DNA of 63,788 nt, the filler included, from Hausera hauseri (lineage: Eukaryota), in NCBI GenBank assembly GCA_046269625.1. It is 11 parts of 11 records of this genome, joined end to end, with 100 filler letters (N's around TTAATTAATTAA, not from the genome) between each part and the next. Parts side by side here need not be neighbours in the genome. Positions count along the whole stretch, not along the records: positions 7,400 to 12,998 come from JBJURY010223410.1; 10 more parts are not named here. One strand, written 5' to 3'. How positions within the stretch are numbered: position 1 is the stretch's first letter; each line of letters opens with the position of its first letter. The notes under the pieces were generated by a model. It had not been told where the DNA came from. It did not search any database and saw only the letters and a list, made by a program, of their open reading frames with translations. A program made the translations under genes and the position numbers. This document shows positions 5,701 through 37,349 of the stretch, piece by piece.

Positions 5701-7299
5701 TGTGGGGAGAAATTGAGACAGCCAACACAAAGTCAGGAAATTCAGAAAAGACGAAAGATAATTGTTGTATAAACTTTTATAAATCTCATGAATAATTCTA
5801 TTTTACAATCATCAAATGAGATTGAGTTCAGAATGGTAGAGACCCGATCTACTAACATGGCAACCAACGCTTCAAGAGACTTCTTCAAGAAGAAATTGAT
5901 GCCAAAATAATTCCAGAAAGGTGACAACGTGGAAACCTTTATTGGAAAATGCAAGAGATACTTTGACTTCATAAAGATGTCGGAGACTGACCGAAAAACC
6001 GCGGTCCTGTGCCTGTTGGTGCAAGAAGCACAGGAAAAATAACATCTGGTGAGTCAGAAGGTTAAAGGGTACCAAAACGGTTGAGAACAGCCTTTGCAAA
6101 ACCCACAAAGCTGTGCGAATATCTAAGGGAGGCTTTGGACTACAGAATTTGGGGACAGAGCCGGCCTCCTACTTCAACCAAATCGAACAGCTGGTGAAGG
6201 AAATCTTTAGTCACAAAATAACACCGGAAGATTTAATAGAGGAATTGATGATTCACTGTTGTGATTATCCGCACATGAGAAAGGAAATCTACCGCAGTGA
6301 CGGAAAAAGGATAGAACAAATCAAAGCTAAAATAAGGAAAATTTAAGAAGTTGCAACAAAGACTGAAAAGATAAATACAGCCAGAGAATACACTAAAGAT
6401 GGTCGACGGAGTTATCGGGGTGTGGTGGTGCACAAATTTGACAAACCAAGACAAGAAAGGAGGGATTTCAAACTGCTAATTACGCAGGCAAAGAGGATGG
6501 TGAAATGCTGGTCGTGCCAGAAAGACGGGCATACAGGCCGGACATATACCTCCAACATGCACCAAGAGGTTTTGGTTTCGGGAAAGAAGGAGGCATTAAA
6601 AGATATTGCCCGGAAATAAACCTATAATATGCTACGGGTGTGGTCAGCAAGGATACAAGACGAAACTGCATAAACATAAAATGCCACAGATGTCACATTA
6701 CAGGGCACAGGGAAGAAGCATGTTACACAAAATTAGACAAGAGCAGAAGAGGAAAAAATACGAATACGGAGAATTTCAAAAGGGCGGGGTATGGCAAAAA
6801 AGACGTGGAGAGGGCGTGAACAGCAGGCACGCATTCGTTGCAAATATTGACGAAGACTATGAAAAACCCATCACAGAGTCGACAAACCCAAAAGGCAGGG
6901 CATTGACAGAGTGGAGCCTGTCGGGATATTATATTAAATAACGCCAAAGACTCCCAAAGTATTCAAAGGAATGTAAAAGATATTGAAGAAATGAAGGAAA
7001 GAACACAAGAAAAGGTACGGAGATTCATAAAAAAGGAAACGTTTGGGGATATAAACGAAGAAGTACGATTTATAGAAAATCAAAACGAGAGCCTCTATAA
7101 AGAGACCATTTTTTCCTTGGAAGGATTGACGGAAAGAGGATCACGTACGATAAACTATAAGGACAGCCAGGTATAAAAATAAAGATACAAGGTAGATGGG
7201 AAGACTGCCTATTGGACACATAGGCACGGGTGAACGTGATGAGTAGGAAGATTTTTGAAAGATTGATAGATGTTCAGCTGGAGAAATCAGATATCACGC
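5701..7299 (+). mobile_element. Gypsy family B, copy 1: 5' LTR (5701-5857), PBS, multi-CCHC gag, protease start; degenerate and cut by the contig end
   Basis: TGTGG...ACTAACA LTR followed by a TGGCAACCAACGC PBS-like sequence. Zinc knuckles CWSCQKDGH and CYGCGQQG. WEDCLLDT protease motif at ~7200. Co-linear with 29801-31667. Confidence 0.85.
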
Positions 7300-7399: not shown

Positions 7400-7823
7400 C
7401 CTGCCTGCGCTGTTATCTGGAGCTAATCGCCGCGCAATAAAAAGTAACGCAATATTCCATGGGCTCACATACGCGTTTGATAGTAGGAGTGTGTCACACG
7501 CAAGAATATGCCACATTAAGTGGCATTTATTGCTATAATTGCAAAATGGCTCATTGTAATTGGCAACAGTTTTTCTGGCGATTATTTCCACACAATACAA
7601 TTTTACCCCCGTAAACACGGTATTGTGTCCACACATACGGATGAAATACACACAGAAAACAAATAATAAAACATATTCAGATAGCCTGTTTGTAAAATAC
7701 AGAAATATTTGAAATATGTGTAATTTGATTGGATTTTTTGATTTAATGAGGTCTTACTTTTCAGGCTGCTCCTCAGCGAGGGCCATAATGTCACTAAAAC
7801 TCTGTTGAACCCATTCGAATCAA

Positions 7824-8156
7824 TGAAAGACCTGCAACACAAACACAAGTCACACACTGAACGCTTTAAGAAAAAGAACCAGAACCCTGCAGCAGGCCTA
7901 CCTGTGATCTCGACCCCTTTCTCGTAGGAACCCGGGTATCCGGCGCTGGCCATCACCACGGTAACTGCAGAGCTGCCCTGCTGCCACACGGGGGCGCTGG
8001 AGGCCAGGTTCCCACTTACGGTGTTCATGATGACGTCATAGAGGTCGCTCTGCATCAGGGGAAGCAGAACCTTGCATTCTGGGTCGCCAAAGCGACAGTT
8101 GAACTCCAGAACCTTTGGGCCCTGATTGGTCAACATGAGGCCTGCGTACAGAACAC
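7824..8156 (-). pseudogene. GART: Isolated fragment of GART (GARS domain): 255-nt exon 8156-7902, 70-nt intron 7901-7832, and the first codons (GLS) of the next exon; vertebrate/teleost-like
   Basis: GVLYAGLMLTNQGPKVLEFNCRFGDPECKVLLPLMQSDLY...AVTVVMASAGYPGSYEKGVEITG. Bounded by a ttctttccAG acceptor and a G/GTAGG donor, with a downstream acceptor tgtgttgcAG/GTCTTTCA. Visibly GC-richer than its flanks. Confidence 0.9.
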
Positions 8157-8301
8157 CTGGAAAGAAAATAGTTTACTTTTCATTTCCATCTAAATAATAC
8201 AAATTCGTCTAAAAATAAGAAGGAAAAATACACAAAATAAAGAAGGTTGTATATACACTAATCAAATTATTATTGTTAATCACTAAGATCAGGTTATAAA
8301 G

Positions 8302-10584
8302 TCAAGCGTCCAAGTCCACTTCTTCGGGATCACTGTCGGTTATCGTTGCCCAATCATCGGTAATTCTGATGGTCCTCGTCTTCTTATCATCATTGTTTCC
8401 TAGGTACATTGTTTCTTCAGTCGAAGTAGTTGATCTCAAGCTGGCTTTCAGTCTTTCAAGAATTGTGGTTTGATCCTTTCGTTCCATTCTCGAACGTTCC
8501 TTCCTTTCTGGCTCCAGTATCTCTTTCGTTTTTCCGAAGAGATGTTCGTACTCATCTTCTTTCATCCAGTCATATATGGAATTTTGTATATTCTCCTGAA
8601 TCGTAGCTTTGATAGGCACCCACATAGTTTTCCCGCTTCTTCTTACAAGAAGAGCTGACAACATATAAGCGCTGCTTTTCACATGAATATCGACAATTGT
8701 CCGACTCGAACTAAGCATTATGCAGCGTTTTTCTACATCCGTCTCATGGTTAACTTCTATTCTTAACATGAGTATTTTCTGAGCATCCCGATAGGGTACC
8801 AGGAAAAATTTAGTCCCTTCTGGTTGGTAATACTGGGCTGCTAGCATCTCGTTTCCTGCTGATTCCCAGTCCAATATCTGTTTTTGTCTAATCCCTTGTT
8901 GTATAGTGGCAGTTTTCTCAGGGATAAATTCGTCAATTACGACTGGTATTGTTATCCCATTGAGGAGTGATATTCGTAAGATTCCATTTACTTGTATTTT
9001 CCTTCTTTTTGGGTCCATCATTGCCATGATCAATTGACGCATAAGTTCATTCGTTTCTAAACTTTCGGTTTGAGTCGATATTTGAACTTGCGTTGTCGAG
9101 TCACACTTTCTTTTCAATATTTTCTTTTCTTCGCTTTCCTTTAAATCATCTGTCTCCCCTTCTGATATTTCGCAATTAGGTTCATCGAATTCATCTGGCT
9201 CGATCTTATCTTTTGTTGGAATTTTCTTAATTTCTTTTCCTTTTACTAGAGTGGCCTGGACATCAAATTGCCATTTCATTGTACCAATATATTCCGGTTT
9301 CCGATTCATTAAATCTCCATAATCAAGTATGTTTCCTTGGGAGTCAGTAGGAGTCCATTCATATTAATCGGTAGTTTTCTTGTGAGATTCTATAGTTAAC
9401 TGGAGTCTTCCTTTCGTAGTACTCAAAAATTGTGGAAATTTCAGCATCACTATTATTTGACATAGTTTTCTCTACATTCTTCATGGGGTCCACAACTGCG
9501 CAAGCTCTATTAATCAGTATGCAAAGCACATTAAACGTCTTGTGCGCTTCTAACGCCGCAATTTTGTATCCCAATATAAATTTTGTAACTTCAGCCCTAA
9601 GTTTGGGTGCATCCATTCCGGTTTGAATTTGATTTCAATCTATTCTGTGTCGGTTCCTGTTCAAGTTATGTATTGCTCTTCTTGGGGATATTATTTCGGA
9701 AAAGATAATGTCACCATTTGATTCCGCAATGATGATTTCAATGGGTAATGGAATCTGAGTTCCATTTGATCGTTTTCCATATGCGAAGGAAGTCGCTAGG
9801 TATCTGATGCTCTTAGCTCTGTCAGTTAATAAGATATTGCCTCCTCTTCTTAATTCTTCTTCATTTGGTTCACTTTTAAATTTTATTAGCTCTGGCATTG
9901 AGTATACTCTTTCTGCAACATAAAACTCAATAAAGCCAGTGGTTACATTTCTCTTGATACAGTTGTGATTCCTTTTGGGTCTACTGCATAGTTAATCTGT
10001 AACGATTCCTGATGGTCAATTTTCTCTATTCGATTTTCATTGCCATCTAATTTTTTAAAACTTATCTGACCTCTGCCTAATGCTATGTGAGCTGTTATTC
10101 CTTTATTCTCGTTCATCCATTGTGTGAGAGGGAGGATAGCATCAAAGTGGTATAATTTAAACGGCAGTAGACATCTGTTCCTCGTTTCACCATATTTGAA
10201 GTAATTTGGGAGTTTTGAGACTTCGTCAATAAATTGATTATCCTGATCGAGATGCGTGATTATTTTGTCGTAAAATGTGTACGACATAGTTTGGCGAATT
10301 ACGGAAAGTTTCCTATTTCCTTCTTTGTCATCTGTTTCTTTGTTTGTTCCGCTTCTTTGTCCAGAATCCTGAGTGCTTCCCGTTTAGGGAGCGTTTGCGA
10401 TAACTCGCCTGGAGCTTGAGTTTCCTGTTTCAGGAGCGTTGATTCCTTTTTTTGATGCATTCAGGCTTCCCATTTCGGGAGCATTGTTCTGGTTTCTTAA
10501 TTTCAGGCTTCCCATTTTGGGAGCATAGTTCTGTCTTCGTGGCAAGCTTCCCATTTCGGGAGCATTACTCTGATTTTGTGGCAT
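8302..10584 (-). pseudogene. Retroelement 3' accessory ORF (~760 aa when rejoined): NAPEMGS repeats, DEDDh exonuclease-like domain (~9830-9530), unknown C-terminal domain
   Basis: ORF pieces 10584-10384, 10287-9943, 9898-9635, 9616-9359 and 9309-8302 join through in-frame stops and two frameshifts. IIFSEIISPRRAIHNLNRNRHRID*NQIQTGMDAPKLRAEVTKFILGYKIAA resembles the REX4/ISG20-type DEDDh core. Confidence 0.6.
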
Positions 10585-10599
10585 TTTGTCAGCGATTAA

Positions 10600-12263
10600 A
10601 CTAAAAAATTGTTGAATTATATCTAATTTATATCTTTTCGTGTTAACACACAAGTTAAATTTGATTCGTTCTCTTATTTGATTGGACTTAATATTCTTAC
10701 AAAAATAATTCAAAACGATTGGTCCACCAATCATAAGGATTATATACCAATATGTTGCTAAAATTTCGTATGAGTTGTCTTTACTCAACCCGATTAATAA
10801 GAGAGGTATAAAACAGAATGTGGTTTGTGTATGTTCTTCTCCTCTCTGAATTTCATTAAGAATCAGTGGTATGTCCTTTGTGATATTCAGTGGTTCAATA
10901 TTGTTTAACTCCACTGTCTTATAATTTCGATTGCTTCGTATTATTTCGTAGTAATGAGATTCATTACTTCTCTTTCTTTTACATTTCATTTTATGACTGT
11001 ATTTTGCTACGATTAGACATATTGTACCGATTCCTAATACTACTGCAATTATCCACCAATATTTGAGTAAATACGATTCTGTAATGTCCGGTAAAGTTGT
11101 AGTTATTTTCATTCTTTCATCTTCGTTATATCTTATGTGTTGGTATTGATTTGCTAAGGGTGACGTTTTTATCGTCACTAATTTTGAATTATCTTTCGTG
11201 TATATTTTGATGAACTCATTTGTATCCGGTGTTAGGCCTTTACAAAAATTGCGTTTATTTTTGGAAAACTGAATCTCGACTTTCTCGTGAATACTTGTAC
11301 ATTTTATCCAACTTTTCTCATTTATTTCGTGAGAAATTATTATCTCGATTCTATTTGTATAAGGTTTAAATTTAAATTTAATTGGAAAATCCTTCATAAG
11401 TCTTCCTTTGAAAATATGCTTGTTTTTCTTCATTGTCTTCGTCACCGGTTTGATTACTTCTGCTACTGTTGTGGTTGCTTTGGTTACTTCTCTGGTTACT
11501 TTGGTTACTTCTATCTCTCCCCTACCCTTATGGGTGGTTTTAAGTGTAGAAATTGTAGGAGTATGTATAATATGTAAAATGGATTTCAATTGTGAACTTT
11601 TAATGAAGATAAAGATTGGTAACCGCGAGGAGTGTATTAGATTAGAAATATCTCCTTTGAAGTACATGTCAAAACGGATTATGCACCGAATATTGGTATG
11701 GAGAGCACAGCATACTCGAGGATGTGCACCATTGAGATGACAAAAATGTGGTTGAGGTACATGTCTGGGGTAAGCCTCATACCATATATTAAGCTCGTAT
11801 CCAAGAGGTAAAAGTTGCATAGTCCGGAAATTGAAACATTATTGTTTAAAAATTGTGCAGAGAACTCGTCATAAAGTAGCATATCTGATTTTGGTTTGTC
11901 TATGATATCCATGATATCCTGAAGGGGAACATGAACATTAATGTTCGGTTTCCATTGGATGATATATCCGTCAAGATCCAGAGATTTCAATAATACATAA
12001 TAAGTATAAGAAGTGTCGTAATCTAGGTGGCAACAAGTCTGAAGATGTTTTTCCGGGATAGTGCAACTAGTAGTTGTTTTATCTGAGGAGGTGAATACCA
12101 ACTTCACTTCATGGCGTGAATATACCGGTACGTGTGTTCTAAAGCAAATGCTGGGTTTGCTTCTATCAACGTGAAAAATGGTTGTGTATATAACCAATTC
12201 AGTAAAGTTGTAGGAAGCAGCTGCAAGTTGTGAGAAAAACGTCAATAAAATAAAGAATACCAT
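10600..12263 (-). CDS. Integrase-fused signal-peptide/membrane protein with FN3-like segments, a Thr-rich stalk and TM helices (frame change near 11680-11820)
   Basis: MVFFILLTFFSQLAAA signal-like peptide, in frame with integrase. FN3-like strand motifs HLDYDTSYTYYV and KGLTPDTNEFIKIY...VTIKTSP. EVTKVTREVTKATTT repeat. TM YWWIIAVVLGIGTICLIVA followed by KMKCKRKR. Confidence 0.55.
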
Positions 12264-12419
12264 GCCAAAGTATCTACCCGATATGAGGTGAACTCGGCAA
12301 CTCATAGATTCAAAGTTATCTATGTTTTGCCTCTGAGATAGAGCCGCTATCTTTGGTTCTACTTTATCTGATGATTCTAACTCTACCTGTCTTATGAAAT
12401 CATTGTATGACGTGGATGC

Positions 12420-12998
12420 TTTCGTGACTCTTTGTACGGACACAGCTTCATATTTGTTTGGTCCTTTTTGGATGAAAATAGTTTGTGGGCGTACATCTAC
12501 GACTTTGTATGGCCCTTGTCCTGTACGTGTCAATTTCAAGGATTTTCCTTTCTTTACCGCGGGGTAGTGTACCATTACATAATCACCAATTTTATAGGTG
12601 TGAGGACGCGCCTTTTTATTATACTGTTTCTTGTATCCAGCTTTATATTTTTGCTCAAATTCTTTGGATTCCTTTTGGAAATATTCAAGCCTCTTTAATA
12701 AGTCGTGATATTGTTCTTCCATATGGTCACTTGTCTTCAAGGAAGATGGCAACAACTCTGTATCCAAAGGTAACAGTGGTAATCGTCCGAACATTAAATC
12801 AAATTGTGAATGATTAGTACTCTTCGTAGGTGTAGTATTTATGGCAAATGCAGTCGTTTTTAAATGTTGATGCCAGTCTTTTTGGTCATGAGCAACTTTG
12901 GTAGACAGAATACCTTGAATTGTTCGATTCATCCGTTCGACCATACCATTACATTGTGGATGGTAGGATGTAGTTAGCAAATGTTTGCATTGAAATAT
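12420..12998 (-). mobile_element. Ty3/gypsy integrase, C-terminal half
   Basis: TTSYHPQCNGMVERMNRT, FDLMFGR and the GPY/F module KL...GQGPYKV. Confidence 0.95.
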
Positions 12999-14460: not shown

Positions 14461-14934
14461 AAAGTCCCAGCGTTGTAATTGTTGATCTGTTCAATCAGGG
14501 TGGTGAACATTAGAAAGGGCGTTCTGCGCCTTCGGAATGGTTGGCGTTTGACTGTCTAGTTTTGTAAAGTCCCTTAGGCTTTCATAATTCAAAAAGGGTG
14601 CCGCTCCAGTCTCTGTAGCCTTTTTTGTTGGCTCGAATAAAGCAAGGTTATGACGATCGAGCTCAATTTTAACGATGAAATTATACATAATTTTGGGACC
14701 GTTTATTATGGCTTTGGTTGGTGTAATTAAAAAGCAATATAATAGATGCACCGACCTTTTTGTTAGTTGTTTTTCGGTAATAACTACTTCGGGACGTAGT
14801 CTGATGATTTCGGGACAGTTTCTGGACGTGTTGCTCTTCTAGTGTACGAATCATGTTTATTTGATTCATTATTTCGTTGGATGTTTGTGATTCGCCTTTT
14901 TTATATTCAATGGGCATATCCATCAAAAGGATTC

Positions 14935-15477
14935 TTGGATTTTCGACTCTCCAAACAAGTTCTCGTTTTTGTCTAGCATCTTGCCAACTGTACATCACTG
15001 AGTGATTTGCGGGTAAAATTAATTTTTGATTTGTTCCTACTTGTTTGTAATGTATATCCATATTACCACCCAAATGATTTATCAACTGAACCAGTGCCAT
15101 ACCATCTTGATAGAGTTGTAAAACGATTAAATTCGCTTCTTCTATAATTTGAACTTCAACGAAAATTCCGATAAATTTCTTTTCCAAATTCATCAGTATC
15201 GAATGTGATTCATAAAATAGAAACGGTTGTGTAACAAGAATTTCCGACTGTTCGACTTTGCAACGCATCAGCATAGACTTATCCACTTTCGATCTAGACC
15301 AAAATGGTACTGCTTCACCAGACGGTACTGGTATCCAACCGACGTCTTCGATGATCTCATTACAATACAGTGTCACATCAGATTGATTTATAATCATGTA
15401 ATACGGTAAAAATGTGACAATTTTAGTCAAACCACTGCTGGATAAATTAATTTTTACTCCAACTTCATAAGTCATCG
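14935..15477 (-). pseudogene. VPS13: Intronless internal fragment of VPS13 (VPS13A/C-like adaptor-binding/SHR-BD repeat region)
   Basis: YEVGVKINLSSSGLTKIVTFLPYYMIINQS...VPFW...YQDGMALVQLINH...LPANHSVMYSWQD..RELVW matches the VPS13A/C segment from YQVGVTIDLSS to YTWADP..RRLKW. Confidence 0.85.
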
Positions 15478-16305
15478 GTTTCTTTTGTGCTTCGGTAATG
15501 ATTTCATTCAGAAGCTCGTTTTGCTGGCTATCGACTGTCTGGCCAATTTCGTTGACTGTGAATCAGAATATATTCCCCAACTTCCTGGAACGCTGTAGCA
15601 TATGTACTACCGGTAAAGTCCATTATTTTTATGTTCATCAGAAATCGGTAACTTCTTCGTTGCATTTTTCTTTTGGGCAAGCTTTATAGACCATTTTGGT
15701 CTCGTTTATGGAAGCTACTATGCTTCGAACTTGTAAATATTCCCCTTTATCGTCATTAGATGAACAGCATATCTGTTTCACCGTTACAGATTTGTTGTAG
15801 AAATTTCCCGTGGAAAATGAAGTGTTTTGACTAACGGAAAAGCTTTCATTTTCTTGGAACGTTGTAACAATGGCGCCTTTCAGAACAATCACCGAATAGG
15901 TATTTTCTTCAACACGATCAGAATGATCACTCCACAAAGTCAATCAAATAGTTGATTCACTGCAATCCAGTAAAACTACATCTCTTTTGTGTACTTCTCG
16001 ATTTTGTTTTGCTATCATTAAGGTTGTAGCAGGACCACCACTGTGAGCAATATCTGCAATATCTATGAAACTGCATTCGGGACGTTGTAAAACATCACAA
16101 ATAGCCACAAAATTATACATTTGTACTTTAAATTGAACGGTACCACTTAATTCAACAATCTCGATATCGTTTCTCATCGAAACTTCATATTCACTCTTCG
16201 TATTGCGATACTGCGGATTGGCTTGTTTAACATTTCCATTTGAGACGGAATAAGTTTTGCCTTCTTGTATTAAGTTGCAATACATGTCTACAGCTTCATT
16301 TGCAT
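15478..16305 (-). pseudogene. RPA1: Intronless, disabled RPA1 (RPA70) fragment spanning the end of DBD-A, DBD-B and a deleted DBD-C
   Basis: NEAVDMYCNLIQEGKTYSVSNGNVKQANPQY, REVHKRDVVLLD..*LTLW, YKACPKEKCNEEV and DFTGSTYATAFQEVGEYIL. Contains stops and internal deletions. Confidence 0.88.
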
Positions 16306-17159
16306 CAGTATTTCTCTCATGACCTTCAACTGCAAAGGACATTAAATTTATTTAAGTATCATCAAATTTTAACACCTTAGGACTATCAATTTTTAAACAT
16401 CGGAATCATCTGAATTAATATTCTGATATAAAGTTTGAGCTCTTAATCCTACTTGAACAGACATATCAGGTTTGCTGTTTAACACATTTTTATCTTCATG
16501 TTCACCTTTTTGGCCAGCCTTGGCAGGTTCTGCAAGTTTAACAAAATTTTCCGATTTAAGAAGCACTTTAATCCTAGTGCTGGAAATAGTGCTTTCATAA
16601 TTTAAAGTACCAGCTTTTGAATGTTCTGAGTGTTCTGTATGCTCTGACACCAATATTATCTTTTTTATATTCTTCAAGAAAAGAAATAAATCTTCCATAT
16701 ACTCCAAAAAAGAATGAGGCAAATAATTCTATATATAATTCCAAAATAAGTAAACGAGAAGGATAATCTCTAATAAAACAACAATTACCAACGTTTATTT
16801 TTTAAATTTTTAAATTTTCAATTATTATCGATATATTTACATTTATATATACATACATATATAGTCTGAGTATGAGTCTTTCTCGAACTGTTCGTCTACA
16901 AAGATCTGCAAGAGACTGATTCTGAAATGTACTGTCGACGAATACCTATCATCTGATGAGCTGACGATATATTTGCTGCCATTGGGTAAATATTTGACAC
17001 AGTAGAAACAATATTTATTCGTTGTGAAATTGATTTTGATTTCTTCAACAGGATCATGAGTTTTGTCCAACAATACACAGTTGTCTGCTTTTGTTACTCC
17101 ATGAACAACACGCGGGGCGAAAATAATTGCCAATATTAGTAACTGTACATGTTTTTTTA

Positions 17160-18795: not shown

Positions 18796-19187
18796 NNNNN
18801 NNNNNNNNNNNNNNNNNNNNNNNNNNNNNNNNNNNNNNNTTAATTAATTAANNNNNNNNNNNNNNNNNNNNNNNNNNNNNNNNNNNNNNNNNNNNGGAAC
18901 AAAAGGGCTTATAATTGGCGTAAATATTGTGATGACATCTGCAACTGTTTTCGAAATCTTGGTGTGGCAATTTAGATAATTATAAATGTATATTTCCTGG
19001 ACAAATCGTCGCGTATCTCCGGGACGGTAAAGTGTATTAAAATTTTGGAATGTCTCCATTATTAGGTATCTTTAGGCCAGTAAACTGACACTAAAATTTT
19101 TTCTTTATCTTTAGTCGTTTCCTAGATATTTGCGTTTCTTTTCTACAAAGAAAATGTTTCTTTTTTCCGGACTTTTTATCCGATATT

Positions 19188-20254
19188 AAATGATCCAACA
19201 GAGACAGTTTAGTGTTCTTGTAAGTTTCCTTCCCGAATTGCACAGTGGCATAGAAATGACCTTTAGTGACGCAGTTAAGATGAATTGTTGCCATGGAGAT
19301 ACTTACTTTGGAAGACGTAATCGACCATCCGTGTTTAAGTGCAATGTCAGTCGAGATGTAACTTTTACAACTGCCAGTATCGATCAGAGCGTTGAGTGAT
19401 ACTCCATTGACCAGAATCTTCACTATGGAATTTGAAAGGCCAGTTTGAGATCTGGTTGCTGTCACAGCGGAAGTTAAAGCACTGAGAGTAGACGCCCTTC
19501 GCTTAGGTTTTGATCTGCATACTCTTTGGTAGTGCCCTTTTTTTCCACAGGAATTGCACGTGGCGTCCTTAGCAGGGCATTTAGAGCGGAAATGCCTGTT
19601 GTTGCTTCCACAGAAAAAACAAGTGAATGTCCTAGACATGGCGGCGCTTACTTCATCTTCATTCACGCTTTCGGTATTAGGCACCGGAGGGATCGCGGCG
19701 ACTGAAGCCTCAGCGGGGGTATTGGAAGACGCCTCGAAGCACATAATATGATGTAAAGCGTACTCCATGGTCCGAGCTTCTTCAAAAGCTTGTTGTAGAG
19801 ATAGAGAAGTTTTCTCCAACAGCCTTTGTCGGATGGCGTTGGACGTCAAACCCGCTATGAAGGCGTCGCGTATTGCTTCTTCTTTCCGTACTTCAGCCGA
19901 TACTTGCTTGAAGTTACAGTCTCTCGCTAAGCTCCGTAATTTCTGCAAATACTGATCAAGAGACTGTCCCTTTTCTTGCTTTAGAGTTGCCAGTTGGTGC
20001 CTGGCAAAAACTTCATTTTTAGGTTTGACGTAAATACCGCTGAGTGTCTCTACTATCTGTTCGAACGTTTTGCATTCAGCCACTATCTGATAAACGGCAG
20101 GGCCAATAAAATTGATAATCAGCTTCTTCTTGTCTACGTCAGGGCAGACAGATACAAAGTTATCGAATGTCTGCAACCAATGCGTCCACTTTTCTGAAGC
20201 GGAGGGGCTGTATGGGTCAACATCGAAGCGTTCCGGTCGAAGTAGTCTCTCCAT
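19188..20254 (-). mobile_element. Gypsy family C, downstream tandem copy: gag and protease, truncated at ~19188
   Basis: MERLLRPERFDVDP...W.HW..TF, the CFFCG..H.R..CPA...C..CGKKGHY..VC knuckles and LIDTGS. Co-linear with 23150-23970. Confidence 0.93.
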
Positions 20255-20355
20255 TTTGTAATAGTAAGAAAAGTCACTTACTCAGCAGTTAAATCTCCAT
20301 AGTAGAAATAAAGAATGAAATGAAATCCAGTTAAGAAAAATGTAGTTGATTAAAT

Positions 20356-20541
20356 TGTAATAACAGTAAGTAACAAAAGTAACACAATGCCACAAATCCA
20401 GATAATTTTGGCTTTAATCAACTACAAAATATAAGTTACATATCAACTGGTCAGACCACCAGCTACACACACAATGGACGACGTGAACACGCGATAACAC
20501 AGAAATACAAAACAGTTCACAACAAACAAACAATCATGACA
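20356..20541 (-). repeat. LTR (~186 bp) shared between the two tandem family C copies
   Basis: PPT AAAGAGGGGGTGAA immediately precedes TGTCATG (20541). The LTR ends TTATTACA (20356), contains ATTAAA, and the gag ATG follows ~100 nt downstream. Confidence 0.85.
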
Positions 20542-20710
20542 TTCACCCCCTCTTTGATATTTTCAAAGTCTTTTTCTCAAATTGTAGGAATGGGTCGGTG
20601 GGGGTCTGCTTTGGTCATCTGTAACGGAAGGGTTTGGACTTATTGAAGGGTTTGGAACTGGAACTATTCTAGAATGATTCCCTTCAGAGTTAGCAGCTCT
20701 GTTTCTTAAG

Positions 20711-23700
20711 TTATAGGAATGTCTTGTCTTCAGCATCAGGCACCACCTCCGATGGCTTTTCTCGAACGGCAGTTGTCCGTGTATGTGTATTACTTTCTAC
20801 GGCGATCTCACCCGAAACGTCGGTTTCGAGTGCAGGTACCTCTGAGAGCTGTGTACTTCTAGCTGGCGCTCGAGCCAGTCGATGTAAAGATACAGTCTCT
20901 TCTCGGCCGTCGGACAGGCGCCCGTGTGCGTAAAGTGGATTACATTCAAGCAGTTCCGCTTCTTCGACGAGGGAGTCATACTTTGAAGTTCTATCCTGTT
21001 TCTGCAGCAGAACTGGGCCTGGTTGTGTAAGCCACGTAGGAATGGATACTCCAGACGTTGACTTGCGATTGTAACTAAACAATCGCTCATGTGGTGTAGC
21101 GTTTGTAGATGTACAGAGAAGTGATCTTATGGAGTGGAGGGCGTCAGGTAGGACGGCCTCCCATTGGGCGATTGGCATGCCCCTAGACTTTGTAGCTAAC
21201 GTAATAGTCTGCCACAGAGTCCCATTCAGTCTTTCAACTTGGCCGTTGGCCCGAGGGTTATAAGCGGTAGTGCGGCTTGTACAGATTCCCTTTGAATGTA
21301 AGAATGTCTTGAGCTCATCAGACATGAATGAAGTGCCTCTGTCAGAGTGCACGTAAGAAGGCATCCCAAAGATAGAGAAAAGCTGCCATAGACATTTAAT
21401 GACAGTGGCCGACGAAATGTCGGAACAAGCAAAGGCGAAAGGGAATCTAGAATATTCGTCAATAATTGTTATAAGGTATTTGTTGCGGGTGCATGATGGC
21501 AGAGGACCTTTGAAGTCAACACTTAGTCTTTCAAATGGCTGAGTAGCTTTAATGAGAGGCCTAAGAGAGTTCTTTACGAAACGCGGTTTGACTTCAGCGC
21601 AAACTTCACACTGGTTGATGACAGTCTTAATGTCTTCAGCTGCAAAGGGTAAGTTTTTGGAGCGAACGAAATGTAACATTCGAGTTACACCAGGGTGACA
21701 AAGTGTGTCATGCAGCTGCCGAAGATCAGTTCTAGACATTGCTGATATATAGTTATTTGTATATAAGGCATCTGCAGCCTTGTTTTGTTCTCCAGGTCTG
21801 TACTGGACATCAAAATGAAAGCAAGAAAGTTCAAGTTTCCATCTCTGAATTTTATCATTCTTAATTTTCCCTTTGTGCTTTTGATCGAACATAAAGGCTA
21901 CCGACCTCTGGTCAGTGATTAAGGTAAAGTGCCTGCCGATTAAGTAGTGCCTCCATTTTCTCAGAGCTTCCACTATCGAAAAAGCTTCTTTCTCTATAGC
22001 TGGTAAGTGCCTCTCGCTTGAAGATAAGGTGCGAGAAAAGAAAGCTACTGGCCGACCATCTTGATTGAGGGTAGCAGCAATGGCTACATCAGATGCATCC
22101 GTCTCAACTACCAATGGGCGGTTGTAATCTATAGTGGACATGGCGGCTGTGGCAAGTTCATCTCTGAGATCATCAAATACTGTTTTTATATGGTCGGGTA
22201 GAGGAAATATCTGATTATGAACCAGATGATGTATTCTTTCAGAGAAGCGAGGGATCCACTGGGCGTAGTAAGCCAGCAAACCTACAACTCTCCTTTGAGC
22301 TTGTAGATTATGTGGTGGAGAGAGATCTTTTAAAACTTGAAATCTTTCAGGATCGGGCTTGAGTGATCCATGGGTTACTTCGTAGCCGAGTAGACGAACA
22401 CTGGAGGCAGAGAATGTACTTTTAGCTTCGTTGAATGTGATCCCCCGTTTCTTAGCAGCGTTCAAGAATCTTTGAAGATTTTGATTGTGGTGCTGTTCAT
22501 CATGCCCACAAATCGTGACATTATCCACGTAAGCATACGTGTCCTCGAGCCCTTCTTCCTTGATAAATGCGTCAATTGTCCTTTGAAAGCTGGCAACACC
22601 ATTTGTGACACCAAAAGGTATCCTGCGAAATTGATACAGCTTGCCGCCAGTTTCAAATGCAGTGAATGGACGTTCCTCCTCCCTAATCGGTATCTGGTGG
22701 AAAGCACTTTGTAAGTCAAGTGTGCTGAAGACGGAGTATTTTGAGATCTCTTCTACCATCTCATCAATCCGAGGCAGCGGGTACGCGTCGAGAAACGTGT
22801 AGCGATTGATAGTTTGACTATAGTCAATCACCATCCTTATCTTATGTCTCTCGTTAGTCGTGACTAAAACTTGAGCTCGCCATGGGGATTCTGAGGGCTC
22901 GATAATCTCATTTTTCAATAGTTCATGTATTTCCTTTTCAATGAACTGTTTGTCCTGGACAGAGTAGCGACGTGACTTAGTAGCTATAGGAACACAGTCA
23001 GGAGACAGGTGTTTAAACAGATATGGAGGGTCAACTTTAGCAGCTTCCAACGCACAGATTCGGAACTCCGGTCGAGTTCCACTGAAAGGAAAAATAACCT
23101 TTTCATGCAGGCTCAGAAAGTCAATGCCTAGGATAACATCAGCACACAAATGATCCAACAGAGACAGCTTAGTGTTCTGATAAATTTCATTACCATATTG
23201 CACAGTGGCAAAGAAATGACCTTTAGTGACGCAGTTGAGACGAGAAGAAGCCATGGAGATACTAACTTTGGAAGACGTAACCGACCATCCGTGTTTAAGC
23301 GCAATGTCGGTCGAGATGTAACTTTCACAGCTGCCAGTATCGATCAAAGCGTTGAGTGATACTCCATTGACCAGAATCTTTACTATGGAATTTGAAAGGC
23401 CAGTCTGAGATATGGTTGCCGTCACAGAGGAAGTTAAAGCACTCAGAGTGGACGCCGGCCCTTTTTGTTTTGACCTGCATACTCTTTGGTAATGTCCTTT
23501 TTTACCACAAGAATGACACGTGGCGTTCCTAGCAGGACATTTTGAGCGGAGGTGCCTGTTGTTGCTTCCACAGAAGAAACACGTGAACGTCTTAGACATG
23601 GCGGCGCCTATGTCAGATTCCTTCACGCTTTCGGTACTAGGCGCCGGGGGGAGCGCGGCGACTGAAGCCTTAGCGGGGGTATTGGAGGACTCCTTGTACC

Positions 23701-23970
23701 ACATAGTATGATGTAGAGCGTATTCCATGGTACGAGCTTCTTCAAAAGCTTGTTGTAGAGTTAGAGAAGTTTTCTCCAATAGTCTTTGTCGGATGGCGTT
23801 GGACGTCAAACCCGCAATGAAGGCGTCGCGTATTGCTTCTTCTTTCCGAACTTCAGCCGATACTTGCTTGAAGTTACAGTCTCTCGCTAAGCCCCGTAAT
23901 TTCTGCAAATACTGATCAAGAGACTGTCCCTTTTCTTGCTTTAGAGTTGCCAGTTGGTGCCTGGCAAAAA
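20711..23970 (-). mobile_element. Gypsy family C near-intact single-ORF gag-pol (gag CCHC, PR, RT, RH, IN); 5' end lost at the contig break
   Basis: Uninterrupted ORF of 1065+ aa: LIDTGS; SPWRAQV, DAYPLP, IPFGV and YVDN; ETDASD and DHRS-like TDQRS; H..LCHPG...CEVC; VDFKGP, SDRG and NGQVER. Confidence 0.97.
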
Positions 23971-28227: not shown

Positions 28228-29760
28228 TGATTTAACTTGGTTAATTATACTTCTCGTAATTTTGTGCCGAGGAGCTTTTGATTGTGATTATTCCACTGTC
28301 GGAGCATTGTATTCTCTCGTATACCTAGAAAAACATCCGTATGCGGAACAGGATAAGTTTGTTTTTGAAGAAACTAAAAAGTATAGATTATACCAAGAGA
28401 ATCTGTTTATTAGAGTTAAGGCACTTCAATGTAAACTGACTAAACAAATTAAAAAATAGTACTGTGGAAAAGTACATCGACATTCAACACATTTTAATGG
28501 CTATACCTAACGAACCAAAAGAACTAACAACGGATCAGTGTCCAGAAGCTGTGAAGATGGGGAAATTAAAAATAAATAATACAGTCGAAATAGGAGCAGC
28601 CGTAAACGCTATTATATATCACACTATCAACGAAGAAGGTTACACTGAAAGTAATGGAAATTGTTCAGAAAATACAGTTGATGGTGTACAAGCGCCGTAT
28701 ACACTAACTATTATTGAAAAATATATTTCATTTGTTGTAATAAAATATTTAATTATTACAACTGACTGTAAATATGGTACAGAATACTGTAGAACCACTG
28801 ATTCTATTATCGCCTGGACTGCACCTACAGTGGAATGTAATTTGGCATTTCTAAAGAAAATCAGTTTTAATGTAGCTAAAGAAATACGACTTAGTACACC
28901 ATTTGCACGGCGAATTGCCGGAAACGAAGACGAAGAAAAATAGAATCAAATAGAAACACCAACAATTATGATTTCGTCGGAAGTTGAAGATTCAATAAGA
29001 TTCATTCAAAAAGAAAAAGTAAAAAAATGTGGAGTAGAAAACGTTTATGCCACTAATATGGAGAATATATATTACATAAACGGAAATAAGTAATGCTTTA
29101 AAAGCGGTTTATCCTACAGAAGTTAGACCAATGAATTATTACAATGGAAAAATGGATTATTTATTTCATTATATGGTAAACAACCAATAACAAATCTATA
29201 AAAATATGATCCAAAACAATTGCCTACTGGCTGAAGATTTACTAGCATTAAAAGTGGCCGTAGATGATATAAATCCAGTTATAGATACCCTGATACTTCC
29301 AACTAAAGTAAAAGGTATGTTTAGACGGGTATCAGGAGAAGCTATTATAACATTCAGATGTACAGAGGTAGTAGTAGATTTAGTGGATATGAAAGTACGT
29401 AACAACGAAAAAACAGTACAGTATAAAGGTGAAACAAGATACGTGGCCCCGATTACTAGAGTTATGCTGCAAAAATGTGAAGAATCTAGTAAAGTGAGAA
29501 ATTGTTATGAGGAAATTGCTCCCTTATACAAAATAAATAAGGACGACTGGGTAGCTTTACCCGCACGAAATAAAGCTGTAACACCAAAAAAGCTCAATAT
29601 GTTTTCCTTAAAAAGGGACTTGGTTTTTGACACTTATAAAATGTTTTACATTGAGGCATATACGATGTTCAAACTGTGGAGAAATTGAGGCATTATTTGT
29701 TATTTCCTAAACAAATTCAAAGATTAATAATTTTTTATACTCAGAAGGTTACCGATACGT
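28228..29760 (+). pseudogene. Class III fusion glycoprotein (chuvirus-G / herpes gB-like retroelement env) relic
   Basis: Signal-like WLIILLVILCRG then AFDC. Further motifs: ALQCKL, NGNC, CKYGTEYC..IIAW..EC, CGVENVYATN, NNCLL..NP..GMFRRVSGEAIITFRC, YKGETRYVAPITR and C...IAPLYKIN..W. Contains stops and frameshifts. Confidence 0.8.
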
Positions 29761-29800
29761 GGGACAGAAGAGTTAATTGGGAAATATCTTAAGTCCAAAT

Positions 29801-31667
29801 TGTGAGGAGGAATTGAAACTGATATTAACGTTTAAATGTAAATCAAAGATAATTAAATAAACAGCCAACAGAAAGTTAGACAATTCAGAAAAGAAGGAAA
29901 ATAAGACTCATTCCCCGAGTGAAGGAGATAAATCTTATATAAAACTTTTGTAATAAATCGATTATGGATAATTCTATTTTACAGTGATCAAGTGAAGTTG
30001 ATGTCGGGACGGAAGAGATGCGATCTACTAACATGGCGACCAACGCTTCAAGAGACCTCTTCGAGAAAAAATTGATGTCCAAAGAATTACAGAAAGGTGA
30101 AACGTGGAAACCTTTATTGGAAAATGCGAGAGATACTTCGACTTCATAAAGATGCCGGAAACGGACCGAGAAACCGCGATTCTGTGCCTTTTGGCGGAAA
30201 AAGCACAGAAAAAATACAGTATAGTGAGCCAGAAAGTGAGAGTGTACCAAAAATGGTTGGGAAAAGCCTTTTCAAAACCCACAACGCTGTGTGGAGATGT
30301 GCATGAGGCCTTGAACTACAGAATGAGGGGGACAGAGCCGGCCGCCTACTTCAACAAAATCGAACAACTGGTGATGGACATCCTTAGCCACAAAATAACA
30401 GCGGAAGCTCTAACAGAGGAACCGATGATCCACTGTTGCGACAATCCAGAGATGAGGAAGGAAATCTCCCACAGTAATGAAAAAAAAGTAGAACAAATCA
30501 AAGAGAAGATACGGAAAGACCACGAAGTGGCAACAAAGACGGAAGAGATAAACACAGTCACAGAATACACTAAAGAGGGTCGACGGAGTTACCGGGATGT
30601 GGTGGTGCACAAATTTGACAAACCAATACAGGAAAGAAGGGGTTTCAAGCTGCACAATACGCTGGCAAAGAGTATGATGAAATGCTGGTCGTGCCAGAAA
30701 GACGGGCATACATGCAAGACATGCAACTTCCAACATGCATCAAGATGTTTTGGCTGCGGAAAAGAAGGACACATTAACGGGAATTACCAGGAAAGGAAAC
30801 CCATAATATGCTATGGGTGGGGTCATCAAGGACACATAAGACGAAACTGCATAAACATAAAATACAATACATGTCACAATAGAGGGCACAGGGAAGAAGC
30901 ATGTTACACAAAATTGGACAAGAGCAGAAGAGGACAAAATACGTATGCCGACAATTTCAAAAGGGCGAAGTATGGTCAAAAAAGATATGGAGAGAGGTTG
31001 AACAGCAGGCACACATACGTTGCAAATATTTATGTAGATTATAAAGAATCCATCATCGATTTGACAAACCCAAAAGGCGGAGCCTCGACAGAAGTGGAGC
31101 CAGTCGGGGCATTATATCAAACAACTCCAAAGACTCCAGAAATATTCAAAGGAATGGACAAGGTATTGAAGAAATGAAGGAAGGAACACAAGAAAAGGTA
31201 CGGAGGTTCATAAAAAGGAAACGTTTGGGGACAGAAACGAAGAAGTACGATTTGCAGAAAGTGAAAATGACAGCCTTCATGAAGCGAGGGTTTTTCCTCT
31301 GGAAGGATTAACGGAAAAGAGTATCACGTACGATAAACTACAAGGACGGCCAAGTATAAAAATAAAGATGCAAGATAGATGGGCAGACTGCCTATTGGAC
31401 ACGGGGCACGGGTAAACGTGATGAGTAGGAAGATTTTTGGAAGATTGACACATGTCCGGCTGGAGAAATCAGATATCATACTCCGTTGTGCAAATGGTAG
31501 CTCCCTAGACTGCATGGATGACCTGTCCGTAAATGTGGACCTCAAGGGAGTACAGAAGCGCGTAACTTTCATAGTAGTGACAGACATATTACCAGAAATA
31601 ATAGGAGGAATGGAACTACAAAAGACTTTTGGAATCGAATTAGGTTGGAGACAGAAAGACGAAGAGA
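29801..31667 (+). mobile_element. Gypsy family B, copy 2: 5' LTR (29801-30033), PBS TGGCGACCAACGC, gag with four CCHC-type knuckles, protease
   Basis: ORF 30104-31177 carries CWSCQKDGHTCKTC, CFGCGKEGH, CYGWGHQGHIRRNC and YNTCHNRGHREEAC. DCLLDTGARVNVMS spans a frameshift at ~31385-31420. Confidence 0.9.
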
Positions 31668-34300: not shown

Positions 34301-35194
34301 TAAATTTGCGTTGAGATGTATGATAGTACCGTGATGGCTAAGTTAGAAGTCAGAGGAACCAAGGATAGAAAAACTGCGAATCTAAAGGTTGGGGATGTGC
34401 GGGTGTGTTGTATGGAGGGTATATGTGAAGGTTGTTATAAAAAAGAGAATAAAGATGGGAGCAGTGATGGGAGTGGAGGCGTGATTTGTGGCCGACATCG
34501 AAGGTGCCCTCGACCGACAGGCGTAGAGTTGGCAGTCGGGTGCCCGAGTCTCCCCTCAAACGGCGCAATATATTCGGTAAATATGTCAGCTTGTTTAATT
34601 GGTGTTATACGTTTTGTAGTGACAATATTCGATCGTGAAACGATTGAAATGAGCGCATAGGGTCAATGGGTGTCATCTCAGACAAATTGGAGACTCGGAT
34701 CTGCCAACAGCTGTATATTTAGATATATACAAAGAAATTTCGGGCATTATTTAGGCAAATAACTTATAAATATCGCCAATGATAGAAACCTTATGCGGTA
34801 TTACATTGATAATAATTTCGTCTCCCGATCCGCATAGAGAGATTTGAAACGGTTTGTTGTTGAAAGTAATAAGACGAAATCCGATTGGTGGTATCTGAAT
34901 TACTATTTCATCGAGTTTTAAGTGAGAATTTTTGTAATGAAATTTAACGGTACGGACTTTATCATTCATAGACATACAAAGTTGAATAAGATTCAAATAA
35001 CATTTATACTTTTCCCCGTCAAGAGTAATTTTGTTGTCTATTACGTCAGAGTAGAAAAACTTAAACAGACGTGGATTGGTGCCGATACAATGGAAAAATG
35101 GATAATCTGGAATTTCAATTTTCCGTAATTTCTGGAAATCATTTTAACCTCCCTGCACAACCCACAAACCATGTTAATGCCAAGTTTGATTAAT

Positions 35195-35800
35195 CTAGAT
35201 GACCAATGAATTCTTCGGGACTTATAACCAACGGAATAGACGTAATTGCGATTATGGTAATTACCCGAATGAATCTGTTGTTGCAGCAACTGGCCAATAA
35301 ACAACTGAATAAGTGATTCAATTCGTAAATTGAAACTACGATCATCATTTATAACTAAGGCGACTTGTTGGGACTCATTTCGTGAAATGTACACGCGCCT
35401 ATCAACGGTAAGCGAATTCGACGGCAAACCTAGATCTTTATAGGAATGTGCCGGACAATACATAGTTCTATCAGTATAATAAACGCAATTTTGCTGCAGG
35501 GGACAAGGCACATTGAATTTCGACGTACATCAAGAATAAAAACATCTAATATCCGCACCGGATTTGCCATACGACAAACAAATGGTTTTTGCGGCGGACA
35601 CAAATGATTCGGGAGCGTTATTGAATGTACCGCACTGCATTTCAAAAACACTGTTACACCACAATGCACAATTAACATGGAGCCATTTGTTCGTGTCAAA
35701 ACACAACAAACGATCAGCACCGTTTTCCGACAAATAATGGCTTCGTTTACAGAGCGAACAAATTCGATTATCGGCGAGATCGTTCCGCCTTAAGACACAT
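35195..35800 (-). pseudogene. KMT2C/KMT2D (trithorax-related) fragment: extended PHD and start of FYRN; upstream Ser/Lys-rich sequence to ~37140 may belong to it
   Basis: DNRICSLC...GADRLL..DTNKWLHVNCALW..VFE, then MYCPAH...VDRRVYISRNE..QVA and LRIESLI...IGQLLQQQ...VGYKSRRIHWS. Has an in-frame stop and lost Cys/His residues. Confidence 0.85.
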
Positions 35801-37349
35801 TTAGAATTGAAAGAGGGCTTTTTAAATTGATTATCGGAAATAACCAACGAGTGACAAGATGACTGGTCGGTAAGAATTTTGGGGTGGAACGTTAAGTACT
35901 TTTTCATTTTGTAATTTTTTTGCGTTACCGACGCAGTTGCTGTCGCAGTCGCTGATGACGACTTTAATTGCTGCAAATTCAATTTCTATTTTACGAATAA
36001 CTTATCACAAATGACGAAATTACCGGATTTCTTGGACAACTGTTTCGATTTCGACAAGGATCCTTATAAAATCGCCGACATTTCCGATGGTTGTTCCTTA
36101 TCAATGTTTGATTAGTGATCTCTGCTAGTCGGTAGCAGAGCAAATACTATATCCAGAGGTATTGAGGATTGTTCCAACATTTTTGTCGCCGACAATTTAT
36201 CGCGGATATCATTAAAATTAATTATATTCTCCGTTCCTTTTATTAAAACATCTTTATCCTGCACATTTTTGATGTAAATTCTTCGGTGATAACAGAAGAG
36301 TCATCAGACAGATTAACTGTTTCCGGAAACTCTATTTTACTTTGTTCGCAATCCAGAATATTAAAGCTTAAATCACATTTTTCAAGAATTAAAAACGGCT
36401 TTTTGTTTGAGTCAATAATAGAGTTTATTTCATTATCTTCATAGTTGTCTTCGTCTATTTCAGGACGTATAAGCGCCGAACAAATTGGACTATTTTTGGC
36501 TGTAGATATTGAGGATGATTCATTTCTGTTTACAGGCGAATACTTTTATCAGTAGACAAATCCAAATGAAATTTACTGATTTCGAATGACTCTTCCATAA
36601 TTTCCAATGCTGGCTTATTTCTTTTCCATTGCTTACGTTTGGCAGAAACAACAGCCGTTACTTCAATAGAATCTTCATTATCTAGTGAATGTGAATTTTC
36701 TGATGATTCTTTGGTTGAATCTACACTCACAGAAAGTTCGTCCTTGGAACACTCAGTTTTAGACGATCTAATTCTAGTACATCTCTTTTGTGTTAGAATA
36801 ACCGAATCTGAGAAGAATCTTTTACCTTTCGCTTTTTAATGGCGATATTTTGCTGCATATTACTCTTCAATTTATCAAATTGTCACTTGAAGATTCTACG
36901 TTGTTGAATTTATTGCTTTCTGGATGTTCGATTTTTCTGTCTGAATCATTAATCTTTTCAGCATTTAAAATCGTAGATGAAACAGGTTGATAAACATTTG
37001 AATTTTTTCTCTTTTAGCTGATTTATCAGAAATCGATTTAGATAAACTTTTCTTCATTATTCGCTTATCCGTCAAAAGTTTTGGAGATTCCTGAAATTCC
37101 TTCACTGGTTGACGTTCTGAAGAAACCGTCATTTGACATAGATTTTTATCAATTGTGCTAATGAGTTATCTCCATCGGGGACAATCCACATCCAATAAAA
37201 TCCATTTGTCATATATTTTTGCATATTTTTCGGCTTCTGCTTTGAGTTTTTCCAAGTCAAACTGGATATTAATCCGATCTAAATCGTCCAAATCCACTCG
37301 CTTCGACAATTGCTGAATGGTGTATGTTACGTCATGAGGATTTATTCCA

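What the first reader, a model, noticed from the sequence alone, without database searches (positions are those of the whole stretch)
8302..12998. Gypsy element with ~4 kb of non-canonical cargo after integrase
Seen: integrase runs in frame into a signal peptide, then a membrane-protein region, then a ~760-aa accessory ORF. All are on the same strand with no intervening LTR. The cargo does not resemble an errantivirus F-type env or the gB-like envs found elsewhere in this window. Inference: a complex-retrovirus-like gypsy lineage encoding a surface protein plus intracellular accessory factors, possibly undescribed.
Basis: partly seen in the sequence, partly recalled or inferred. Interest (0 to 1): 0.85.

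Follow-up and report, generated by a model that had tools for sequence, protein, structure and literature searches.

The report
Mobile element with orphan membrane cargo
This is a decayed copy of a many-copy jumping gene whose integrase runs straight into about 4 kb of conserved coding sequence with no known relatives, predicted to make a cell-surface protein and a likely inactive nuclease instead of the usual viral envelope.

Summary
The cargo is real, belongs to the element and is under purifying selection; its function is inferred. On a 5.6-kb contig (7400-12998, minus strand) a gypsy-type integrase runs in frame into a signal-like stretch, three Cys/beta-rich segments, two membrane helices, short repeats and a DEDDh-exonuclease-like domain without catalytic acids. 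A separate 353-codon frame follows. The '760-aa ORF' is not one frame: it crosses two stops and two frame changes. Two public runs with different organism labels hold diverged relatives along the whole cargo (3444 and 329 contigs laid). Sites that vary among copies are 21 silent to 7 replacing, against 7 to 16 for changes nearly private to this copy (p 0.002). No cargo homologue was found, including among 1.84 billion representatives for a 631-residue piece. It is neither an F nor a gB envelope. FN3 is only a weak lead. RT, gag and LTRs are not on the contig, so 'gypsy' is likely but unproven. The 3' end abuts a GART gene fragment through a join that no listed contig supports. Extra membrane and exonuclease ORFs are known from rotifer LTR elements; this fused layout was not found in print.

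The parts
12400..12998 (-). C-terminal half of a gypsy-type integrase with GPY/F module; cut by the contig start
   Evidence: Pfam rve_3 E 0.0055; 21 pol polyproteins, best E 1.5e-32; GPY motif at 12515
12216..12263 (-). Predicted internal signal sequence, in frame with the integrase
   Evidence: Hydropathy peak 1.66 at 12287-12231; Met, hydrophobic core, Ala-Ala-Ala-Ser read from the sequence; no signal-peptide predictor was run
11569..12215 (-). Two Cys-Cys-containing segments of the predicted ectodomain; frame change near 11832 in this copy
   Evidence: no Pfam or PDB match; FN3 profile not significant
11155..11568 (-). Thr-rich linker and a third, beta-rich segment (weak FN3 lead)
   Evidence: Linker 31% Thr/Ser/Pro; strands in a low-confidence model; Atlas FN3-type leads at 0.77-0.82; FN3 profile 130 of 1000 shuffles as good
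11005..11061 (-). Membrane helix 1, followed by a basic patch and a Tyr-x-x-Ile motif (about 10956)
   Evidence: Hydropathy 2.33; the only confident part of the model, block pLDDT 70-91
10711..10818 (-). Short hydrophobic stretch (possible second internal signal) and membrane helix 2
   Evidence: Hydropathy 1.67 at 10767-10711; positions
10420..10584 (-). Three to four short imperfect peptide repeats
   Evidence: 34-nt self-match at 88%; motif positions
9946..10383 (-). 146-codon orphan segment in the same frame as the membrane part, behind a stop at 10384-10386 that other copies do not share
   Evidence: no family match
9359..9802 (-). DEDDh-exonuclease-like domain, no acidic residue at the ExoI or ExoII positions in this copy; stop at 9635-9637 that other copies do not share
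   Evidence: Profile of 83 bacterial and phage DEDDh proteins: joint best of 2532 window tiles, E 0.053; 0 of 2000 shuffles as good; hhalign probability 66.6%; no Pfam or PDB hit
8302..9363 (-). Separate 353-codon orphan frame (first Met at 9309)
   Evidence: no homologue; silent changes dominate among copies
8204..8301 (-). About 100 nt of U-rich non-coding element sequence; no purine tract or LTR before the join
   Evidence: Covered by X1 contigs; no purine run of 12 or more after 8509
7828..8203 (-). Flank, not cargo: 376-nt GART (purD) gene fragment, cut on both sides
   Evidence: Pfam GARS_A E 2e-12; human GART E 3e-36, best bacterial 8e-23; one X2 contig of 4759 nt matches with 13 differences and goes on unlike the window at both ends; GC3 0.75 against 0.32-0.37 in the element

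Best explanation
This is a decayed copy of a multi-copy mobile element, likely a Ty3/gypsy LTR retrotransposon, whose integrase frame continues into a conserved cargo predicted to yield a non-fusogenic cell-surface protein and a membrane-tethered, likely inactive exonuclease, followed by a separate accessory ORF. Shown: the order of parts, many diverged relatives in two runs, frame conservation, purifying selection, and four breaks at which other copies differ from this one. Inferred mechanism: the cargo is made as the tail of the pol polyprotein (or from a spliced or internally started RNA). The internal signal sequence would send it into the ER, and signal peptidase would free the integrase. 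The first product would be a type I membrane protein: three beta-rich segments and a Thr-rich stalk outside, a basic and Tyr-motif tail inside. A second internal signal and helix would anchor a cytosolic part that ends in the DEDDh-like domain. The most likely role is host modulation or adhesion at the cell surface, with RNA binding or shielding from silencing by the pseudo-nuclease, which would help the element persist or pass between cells without a fusogen.
For: 3444 X1 contigs and 329 X2 contigs lie on the stretch, at 99+/95-99/90-95/under 90% likeness 462/736/1062/1184 and 24/51/92/162, with cover in every cargo bin. One X1 contig (depth 153) joins the integrase end (12424) to the signal region (12294); X2 contigs span 10622-11358 and 10072-10418. 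Seven of 8 listed length differences in the cargo are multiples of three, and the eighth lies at this copy's own break (12 of 27 rows shown). Variable sites 21 silent: 7 replacing; near-private sites 7: 16; Fisher p 0.002; neutral silent share 0.21-0.33, binomial p 6.5e-6. At the two stops nearly all laid depth differs from the window (2143 of 2167 and 1794 of 1802 in X1; all in X2). Hydropathy and order of parts. DEDDh-like match above all shuffles. A-rich sense strand shared by integrase and cargo, 36-40% A. Precedent for membrane and exonuclease ORFs in LTR elements (PMC5408684).
Against: No RT, gag or LTR on the contig; the integrase has no close relative (best 33% over 182 columns, unplaced in the tree). 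No contig spans the whole element, so the order in other copies rests on overlapping short pieces. X1 may be the window's own sample. The scored sites are 51 rows from the best-supported rows that the tool chose to show (40 of 1037 and 40 of 279). Both folds were low confidence (pLDDT 32 and 38) and the fold search found nothing. FN3 was not supported by Pfam, PDB or a home-built profile. The DEDDh match is weak (10.8 bits), tied with a chance tile, and the idea came from looking at the same sequence. Topology, cleavage and function are untested. More distant integrase relatives run on into unaligned sequence.
Confidence: 0.5

Rival explanations
1. Same element, but the surface protein is a true envelope: an unrecognised fusogen or attachment protein that lets particles or cells pass the element on, a further type beside F, gB and FAST-like sORF2.
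For: It sits where env sits, right after the integrase, with signal, Cys-containing ectodomain, membrane helix and basic tail; it is conserved under selection. The published errantivirus survey used F and gB baits and would not have caught it (PMC13524379, methods section).
Against: The ectodomain is about 400 residues of three small segments and a Thr-rich stalk; no hydrophobic fusion-peptide-like window was found between the signal and helix 1 in the working frames; no fusogen family match. The nearest Atlas leads are receptor-like FN3 proteins, all under 0.9.
Confidence: 0.17
2. The element is a Ginger1-like DNA transposon or another integrase-bearing element without RT, and the cargo is a long C-terminal extension of its transposase.
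For: Ginger1 transposases carry a gypsy-like integrase with GPY/F and extra C-terminal domains (PMC2836005). No RT, gag, purine tract or LTR is on the contig. only looked at proteins of 770-2195 aa, which favours pol hits.
Against: Described Ginger1 tails are OTU, Ulp1 or PHD domains, and none matched; many Ginger1 genes have introns, and none is evident over 4.7 kb of coding sequence here; a signal sequence and membrane helices fit a nuclear transposase poorly; 20 of the 21 integrase hits carry an RT domain and the other an RNase H domain.
Confidence: 0.12
3. The cargo is passive baggage: captured host or viral sequence, amplified with the element but without a function for it.
For: Other contigs in the window show host gene pieces (VPS13, RPA1, FYRN) beside gypsy parts; more distant integrase relatives do not show this cargo; the rotifer ORF3s showed no clear departure from neutrality (PMC5408684, discussion passage).
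Against: Silent changes dominate among copies and length differences keep the frame in both runs; base composition matches the integrase; no host parent was found.
Confidence: 0.08
4. The arrangement is an assembly chimera or a chance insertion next to a single-copy host locus.
For: The contig's other join (element to GART fragment at about 8203) has no listed bridging contig, and X2 holds that GART locus without the element.
Against: The integrase-cargo frame is open across the join, a different X1 copy bridges it, and many diverged contigs cover the whole cargo in two runs.
Confidence: 0.03

Closest known systems
Bdelloid rotifer Vesta/Juno LTR retrotransposons with non-env ORF3 (Rodriguez 2017, PMC5408684; passages and section 3.2 read)
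   Same: Extra ORFs after pol that are membrane proteins without env homology, or DEDD-family exonucleases.
   Different: There the ORF3s are separate, the membrane ones 210-230 aa, and the DEDDy catalytic residues are intact. Here about 970 codons follow the integrase in frame and join a large ectodomain, two helices and a DEDDh-like domain without catalytic acids; one more ORF follows.
Errantiviruses with F- or gB-type env (Chary and Hayashi, PMC13524379; abstract, passages, first part of section 5 and the methods section on identification read)
   Same: Gypsy-type integrase followed by a signal, an ectodomain and a membrane anchor.
   Different: No F or gB match; ectodomain small and segmented; long cytosolic extension and extra ORF.
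Burro/GYPSM1 giant gypsy elements of planarians (PMC6431247; passages read)
   Same: Accessory domains and an env fused in frame into one polyprotein.
   Different: Their cargo lies between gag and protease and holds BIR, BCL2, MATH, ankyrin and an F-like env; none matched here, and this cargo lies behind the integrase.
sORF2/FAST-like proteins of MDG1-group elements (PMC11952523; passages read)
   Same: Env-free membrane protein with a basic juxtamembrane patch; in some moth elements encoded after pol.
   Different: Those are stand-alone proteins of 63-107 aa, selected for a myristoylation motif; here the helices lie inside a long frame fused to integrase.
Ginger1 DNA transposons (PMC2836005; passages read)
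   Same: Gypsy-like integrase with GPY/F and a fused C-terminal extension.
   Different: Known extensions are OTU, Ulp1 or PHD, with terminal inverted repeats; no membrane cargo is described in the passages read.

Membership tests
Ty3/gypsy LTR retrotransposon (Metaviridae) | DDE integrase with GPY/F module | tested here: met
   C-terminal half present; 21 pol hits, best E 1.5e-32; GPY motif at 12515
Ty3/gypsy LTR retrotransposon (Metaviridae) | gag, protease, RT and RNase H upstream of the integrase | not testable with these tools
   The contig starts inside the integrase; no genome is held
Ty3/gypsy LTR retrotransposon (Metaviridae) | Purine tract and LTR at the 3' end | tested here: inconclusive
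   None in the 100 nt between the last stop and the GART fragment; the copy looks cut off there
Ty3/gypsy LTR retrotransposon (Metaviridae) | Placement in a named clade by RT/IN tree | tested here: inconclusive
   Integrase unplaced among 25 rows, no named reference clades on hand
Errantivirus (env-carrying gypsy) | env homologous to F or gB glycoproteins | tested here: not met
   No such Pfam match in the cargo; the window's other env gives PF24664 at E 8.8e-13; no homologue
Ginger1 DNA transposon | OTU, Ulp1 or PHD domain behind the integrase | tested here: not met
   No such Pfam match
Ginger1 DNA transposon | Terminal inverted repeats and no RT | not testable with these tools
   Neither end of the element is on the contig
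DEDDh (DnaQ/RNase T) exonuclease | Profile similarity over the core | tested here: inconclusive
   10.8 bits, 0 of 2000 shuffles as good; hhalign 66.6%, score 31.9 against best 22.4 of 60 shuffles; but E 0.053 window-wide with a tie and no Pfam or PDB hit
DEDDh (DnaQ/RNase T) exonuclease | Catalytic acidic residues of ExoI, ExoII, ExoIII | tested here: not met
   No acidic residue at the aligned ExoII position or in the ExoI-like strand (by eye); ExoIII not aligned; holds for this decayed copy, family state only partly seen
Fibronectin type III ectodomain | Profile or fold match of the three segments | tested here: inconclusive
   Atlas leads 0.77-0.82, all FN3-related but under 0.9; Pfam none; bacterial FN3 profile: 57, 553 and 130 of 1000 shuffles as good; model pLDDT 38, no fold match
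sORF2/FAST-like fusogen | Stand-alone 63-107-aa protein with short ectodomain | tested here: not met
   Both helices lie inside a 484-aa frame

The most novel reading that the evidence does not exclude
A gypsy lineage has evolved a surface apparatus unrelated to F, gB or FAST proteins: a receptor-like membrane protein and a tethered pseudo-nuclease cut out of the pol polyprotein by signal peptidase, used for cell-to-cell spread or for damping host defence, as accessory genes do in complex retroviruses and large DNA viruses.
Probability: 0.2. Interest if true: 0.85.

Novelty: new variant of a known kind. Interest (0 to 1): 0.55.

Why it matters
Surveys of infectious gypsy elements use F and gB baits, so lineages with other surface proteins are missed. 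A conserved, homologue-free membrane cargo fused to integrase would widen the known ways in which retrotransposons meet membranes and host defence, and it gives a bait for finding such lineages in animal genomes. If it proves to be a Ginger-type DNA transposon, a membrane cargo would be stranger still.

Tried and rejected
Homologue searches that found nothing: the 353-aa frame among 5.8 billion proteins of 194-618 aa (longer and shorter not searched), in viral contigs and in the Atlas (no usable hit); the 484-aa frame in metagenome contigs; the 631-residue read-through among 1.84 billion representatives (the first Cys segment, the exonuclease-like part and the last ORF were not in that query); PHROGs, three hits of unknown function at E 0.035-0.079; PDB sequences (best E 0.094, thermonuclease, taken as chance). 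Single-sequence folds were low confidence and Foldseek gave 0 matches at E 0.001. The three ectodomain segments show no significant likeness to each other (14-15% identity). An FN3 profile from 33 bacterial and phage domains did not support FN3. One search returned only near-identical DnaQ proteins and was not used. The integrase tree was unresolved. No RNA holder listed. No likeness between cargo and other contigs of the window. Three look-ups of earlier findings returned nothing. The Atlas was not searched with the exonuclease-like part, so that part has no Atlas result. Rejected: a single 760-aa ORF; GART as cargo; summed contig depth as a copy number.
Full report
Setting. The window is a pool of contigs separated by N-spacers; the finding fills one of them, 7400-12998. 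No genome is held. The host is an animal; which one was not established.

What the sequence shows. On the minus strand the contig starts inside an integrase. The 439-aa frame 12998-11682 has a weak Pfam integrase match (rve_3, E 0.0055), a GPY motif at 12515 and 21 pol-polyprotein relatives among 4631 candidates of 770-2195 aa (best E 1.5e-32); none of the 21 aligns beyond residue 217. The same frame goes on into a hydrophobic stretch ending in Ala-Ala-Ala-Ser and a Cys-Cys segment. After a frame change near 11832 the 484-aa frame 11838-10387 holds a second Cys-Cys segment, a Thr-rich linker, a third segment, a membrane helix (11061-11005), a basic patch and Tyr motif, a short hydrophobic stretch, a second helix (10767-10711) and short repeats. 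A stop at 10384-10386, 146 more codons, a frame change near 9945, a frame with a stop at 9635-9637 that ends at 9359, and a separate 353-codon frame (9363-8302) follow.

The cargo belongs to a multi-copy family. Two runs hold the stretch, from two studies with different organism labels (shares 0.48 and 0.15); X1 may be the window's own sample. Laid at 80% likeness, 3444 X1 contigs and 329 X2 contigs fall on the contig, spread over all likeness bands, with cover in every cargo bin. Depth is no copy number, but so many distinct variants cannot come from one locus. One X1 contig of depth 153 joins 12424 to 12294, that is integrase end to signal region; X2 contigs span 11989-12297, 10622-11358 and 10072-10418. 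No piece spans the whole element. Distant sisters thus have another or a much diverged 3' region.

The cargo is under selection and this copy is decaying. From the rows shown (40 of 1037; 40 of 279) I kept the 51 different rows in cargo codons. I dropped 10 rows in the GART exon, 3 non-coding rows, 2 integrase rows and 4 rows at or beside breaks. Sites that vary among X1 copies (share under 0.9) are 21 silent to 7 replacing; sites where nearly all copies differ from the window are 7 to 16 (Fisher p 0.002; 22:8 and 6:15 at a 0.95 cut). The neutral silent share is 0.21-0.33; 21 of 28 against 0.33 gives p 6.5e-6. The rows are the tool's best-supported ones, not a random sample, and sites are not independent. 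Seven of 8 listed length differences in the cargo are multiples of three (12 of 27 rows shown); in the last ORF they are three letters or compensating pairs, with one single-letter case at 9484 at depth 16 of 440 (all 9 rows shown). At both stops nearly all laid depth differs from the window (2143 of 2167 and 1794 of 1802 in X1, all in X2), and at the frame changes near 11832 and 9945 one and three X1 contigs differ from it at the break. No length difference is listed at the 9363 boundary. So the family likely has one long frame from integrase to 9359 (about 970 cargo codons) and a separate last ORF; this is inferred from short pieces.

What the cargo resembles. No F or gB match, while the env at 29191-29685 matches PF24664 at E 8.8e-13. 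No homologue for the 631-residue piece 11838-9946 among 1.84 billion representatives, for the last ORF, or in metagenome contigs. For the ectodomain the Atlas gave FN3-type receptor leads at 0.77-0.82, a level that a third of shuffled proteins reach. Pfam, PDB, a 33-domain bacterial FN3 profile and a low-confidence fold did not confirm FN3. The 9802-9359 part looked by eye like a DEDDh exonuclease (family pattern recalled). A profile of 83 bacterial and phage DEDDh proteins ranked it joint first among 2532 overlapping tiles of the window (10.6 bits, E 0.053, profile positions 18-135; a short chance match tied). None of 2000 shuffles reached its 10.8 bits, and hhalign gave probability 66.6% over 75 columns against at most 10% in 60 shuffles. 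Pfam and PDB gave no such hit and the fold was unusable (pLDDT 32). The catalytic acids are missing at the aligned ExoII position and, by eye, at ExoI. I take it as a likely pseudo-nuclease, at moderate confidence.

The ends. About 100 nt after the last stop the contig turns into a 376-nt GART fragment (7828-8203), with GC3 0.75 against 0.32-0.37 in the element. An X2 contig of 4759 nt matches it with 13 differences and goes on unlike the window at both ends; no listed contig bridges the join (human-like contigs are filtered, so a hole proves nothing). No purine tract or LTR precedes the join. The element's 3' end is lost or the join is chimeric; this does not touch the integrase-cargo link. 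With no RT, gag or LTR in view and an unplaced integrase, gypsy membership is likely but untested; Ginger1 transposons also carry GPY/F integrases with fused tails (PMC2836005).

Mechanism. Shown: layout, family, selection. Inferred: translation as the tail of pol or from a subgenomic RNA; release of integrase by signal peptidase at the internal signal; a type I surface protein with small beta-rich segments; a second anchor holding a cytosolic part that ends in the pseudo-nuclease; a separate accessory protein. I favour adhesion or host modulation plus RNA shielding (0.5) over a new fusogen (0.17), a Ginger-type element (0.12), passive baggage (0.08) or an artefact (0.03).

Comparison with print. 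Nine answered searches of open-licence PubMed Central and bioRxiv text found no description of this layout; subscription papers, Repbase, Dfam and GyDB were not searchable and no supplements were read, so a deposited family may exist. Read in passages or named sections: PMC5408684 (rotifer LTR elements with separate membrane or DEDDy ORF3), PMC13524379 (F and gB errantiviruses), PMC6431247 (Burro polyproteins), PMC2836005 (Ginger), PMC11952523 (sORF2), PMC6338049 (lists a DnaQ-like exonuclease as a known accessory domain of LTR elements), PMC9040795 (Odin, no env). Each ingredient has a precedent; the in-frame fusion of integrase, large orphan ectodomain, two helices and a pseudo-nuclease was not found.

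Verdict. A real, selected, element-borne cargo without detectable homologues; new variant of a known kind; interest 0.55.

Noticed in passing
window 28440-31667 (+), related copy at 5718-7296: A gB/chuvirus-type env (PF24664, E 8.8e-13) lies upstream of a zinc-knuckle gag-like frame and a protease-like motif (by eye): env-gag-pol order. PMC13524379 (methods) reports that order from two arachnid genomes. The gag region recurs at 79-92% identity. It could also be two tandem elements.
   Followed up: partly
window 44050-48439 (+): A gag-like frame with one zinc knuckle is followed by about 3.3 kb of long A-rich frames (234, 447, 155, 196 aa) with no Pfam match: possibly a second element with orphan cargo.
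   Followed up: partly
window 14684-16351 (-): Intron-free VPS13 (PF25036, E 1.7e-7) and RPA1-like (PF16900, E 7e-4) pieces lie between a gypsy integrase and a gag-like frame on the same strand: captured host fragments or a compact genome.
   Followed up: partly
window 35044-37807: A FYRN-domain piece (E 7.6e-8, KMT2-like by recall) and a protein-primed-type DNA polymerase B piece (PF03175, E 5.7e-7) lie beside gag and RT fragments.
   Followed up: partly
window 7828-8203 (-): Vertebrate-like GART fragment with GC3 0.75 inside an AT-rich contig, cut on both sides; run X2 holds the locus uncut. The assembly may mix DNA of two organisms, such as a parasite and its host; not settled.
   Followed up: partly
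window 19094-23968 (-): A nearly whole 1085-aa gag-pol frame followed by a second copy of the same gag (90% over 300 nt).
   Followed up: no
window 39545-44000: About 4.4 kb pyrimidine-rich simple-repeat array with internal N runs.
   Followed up: no
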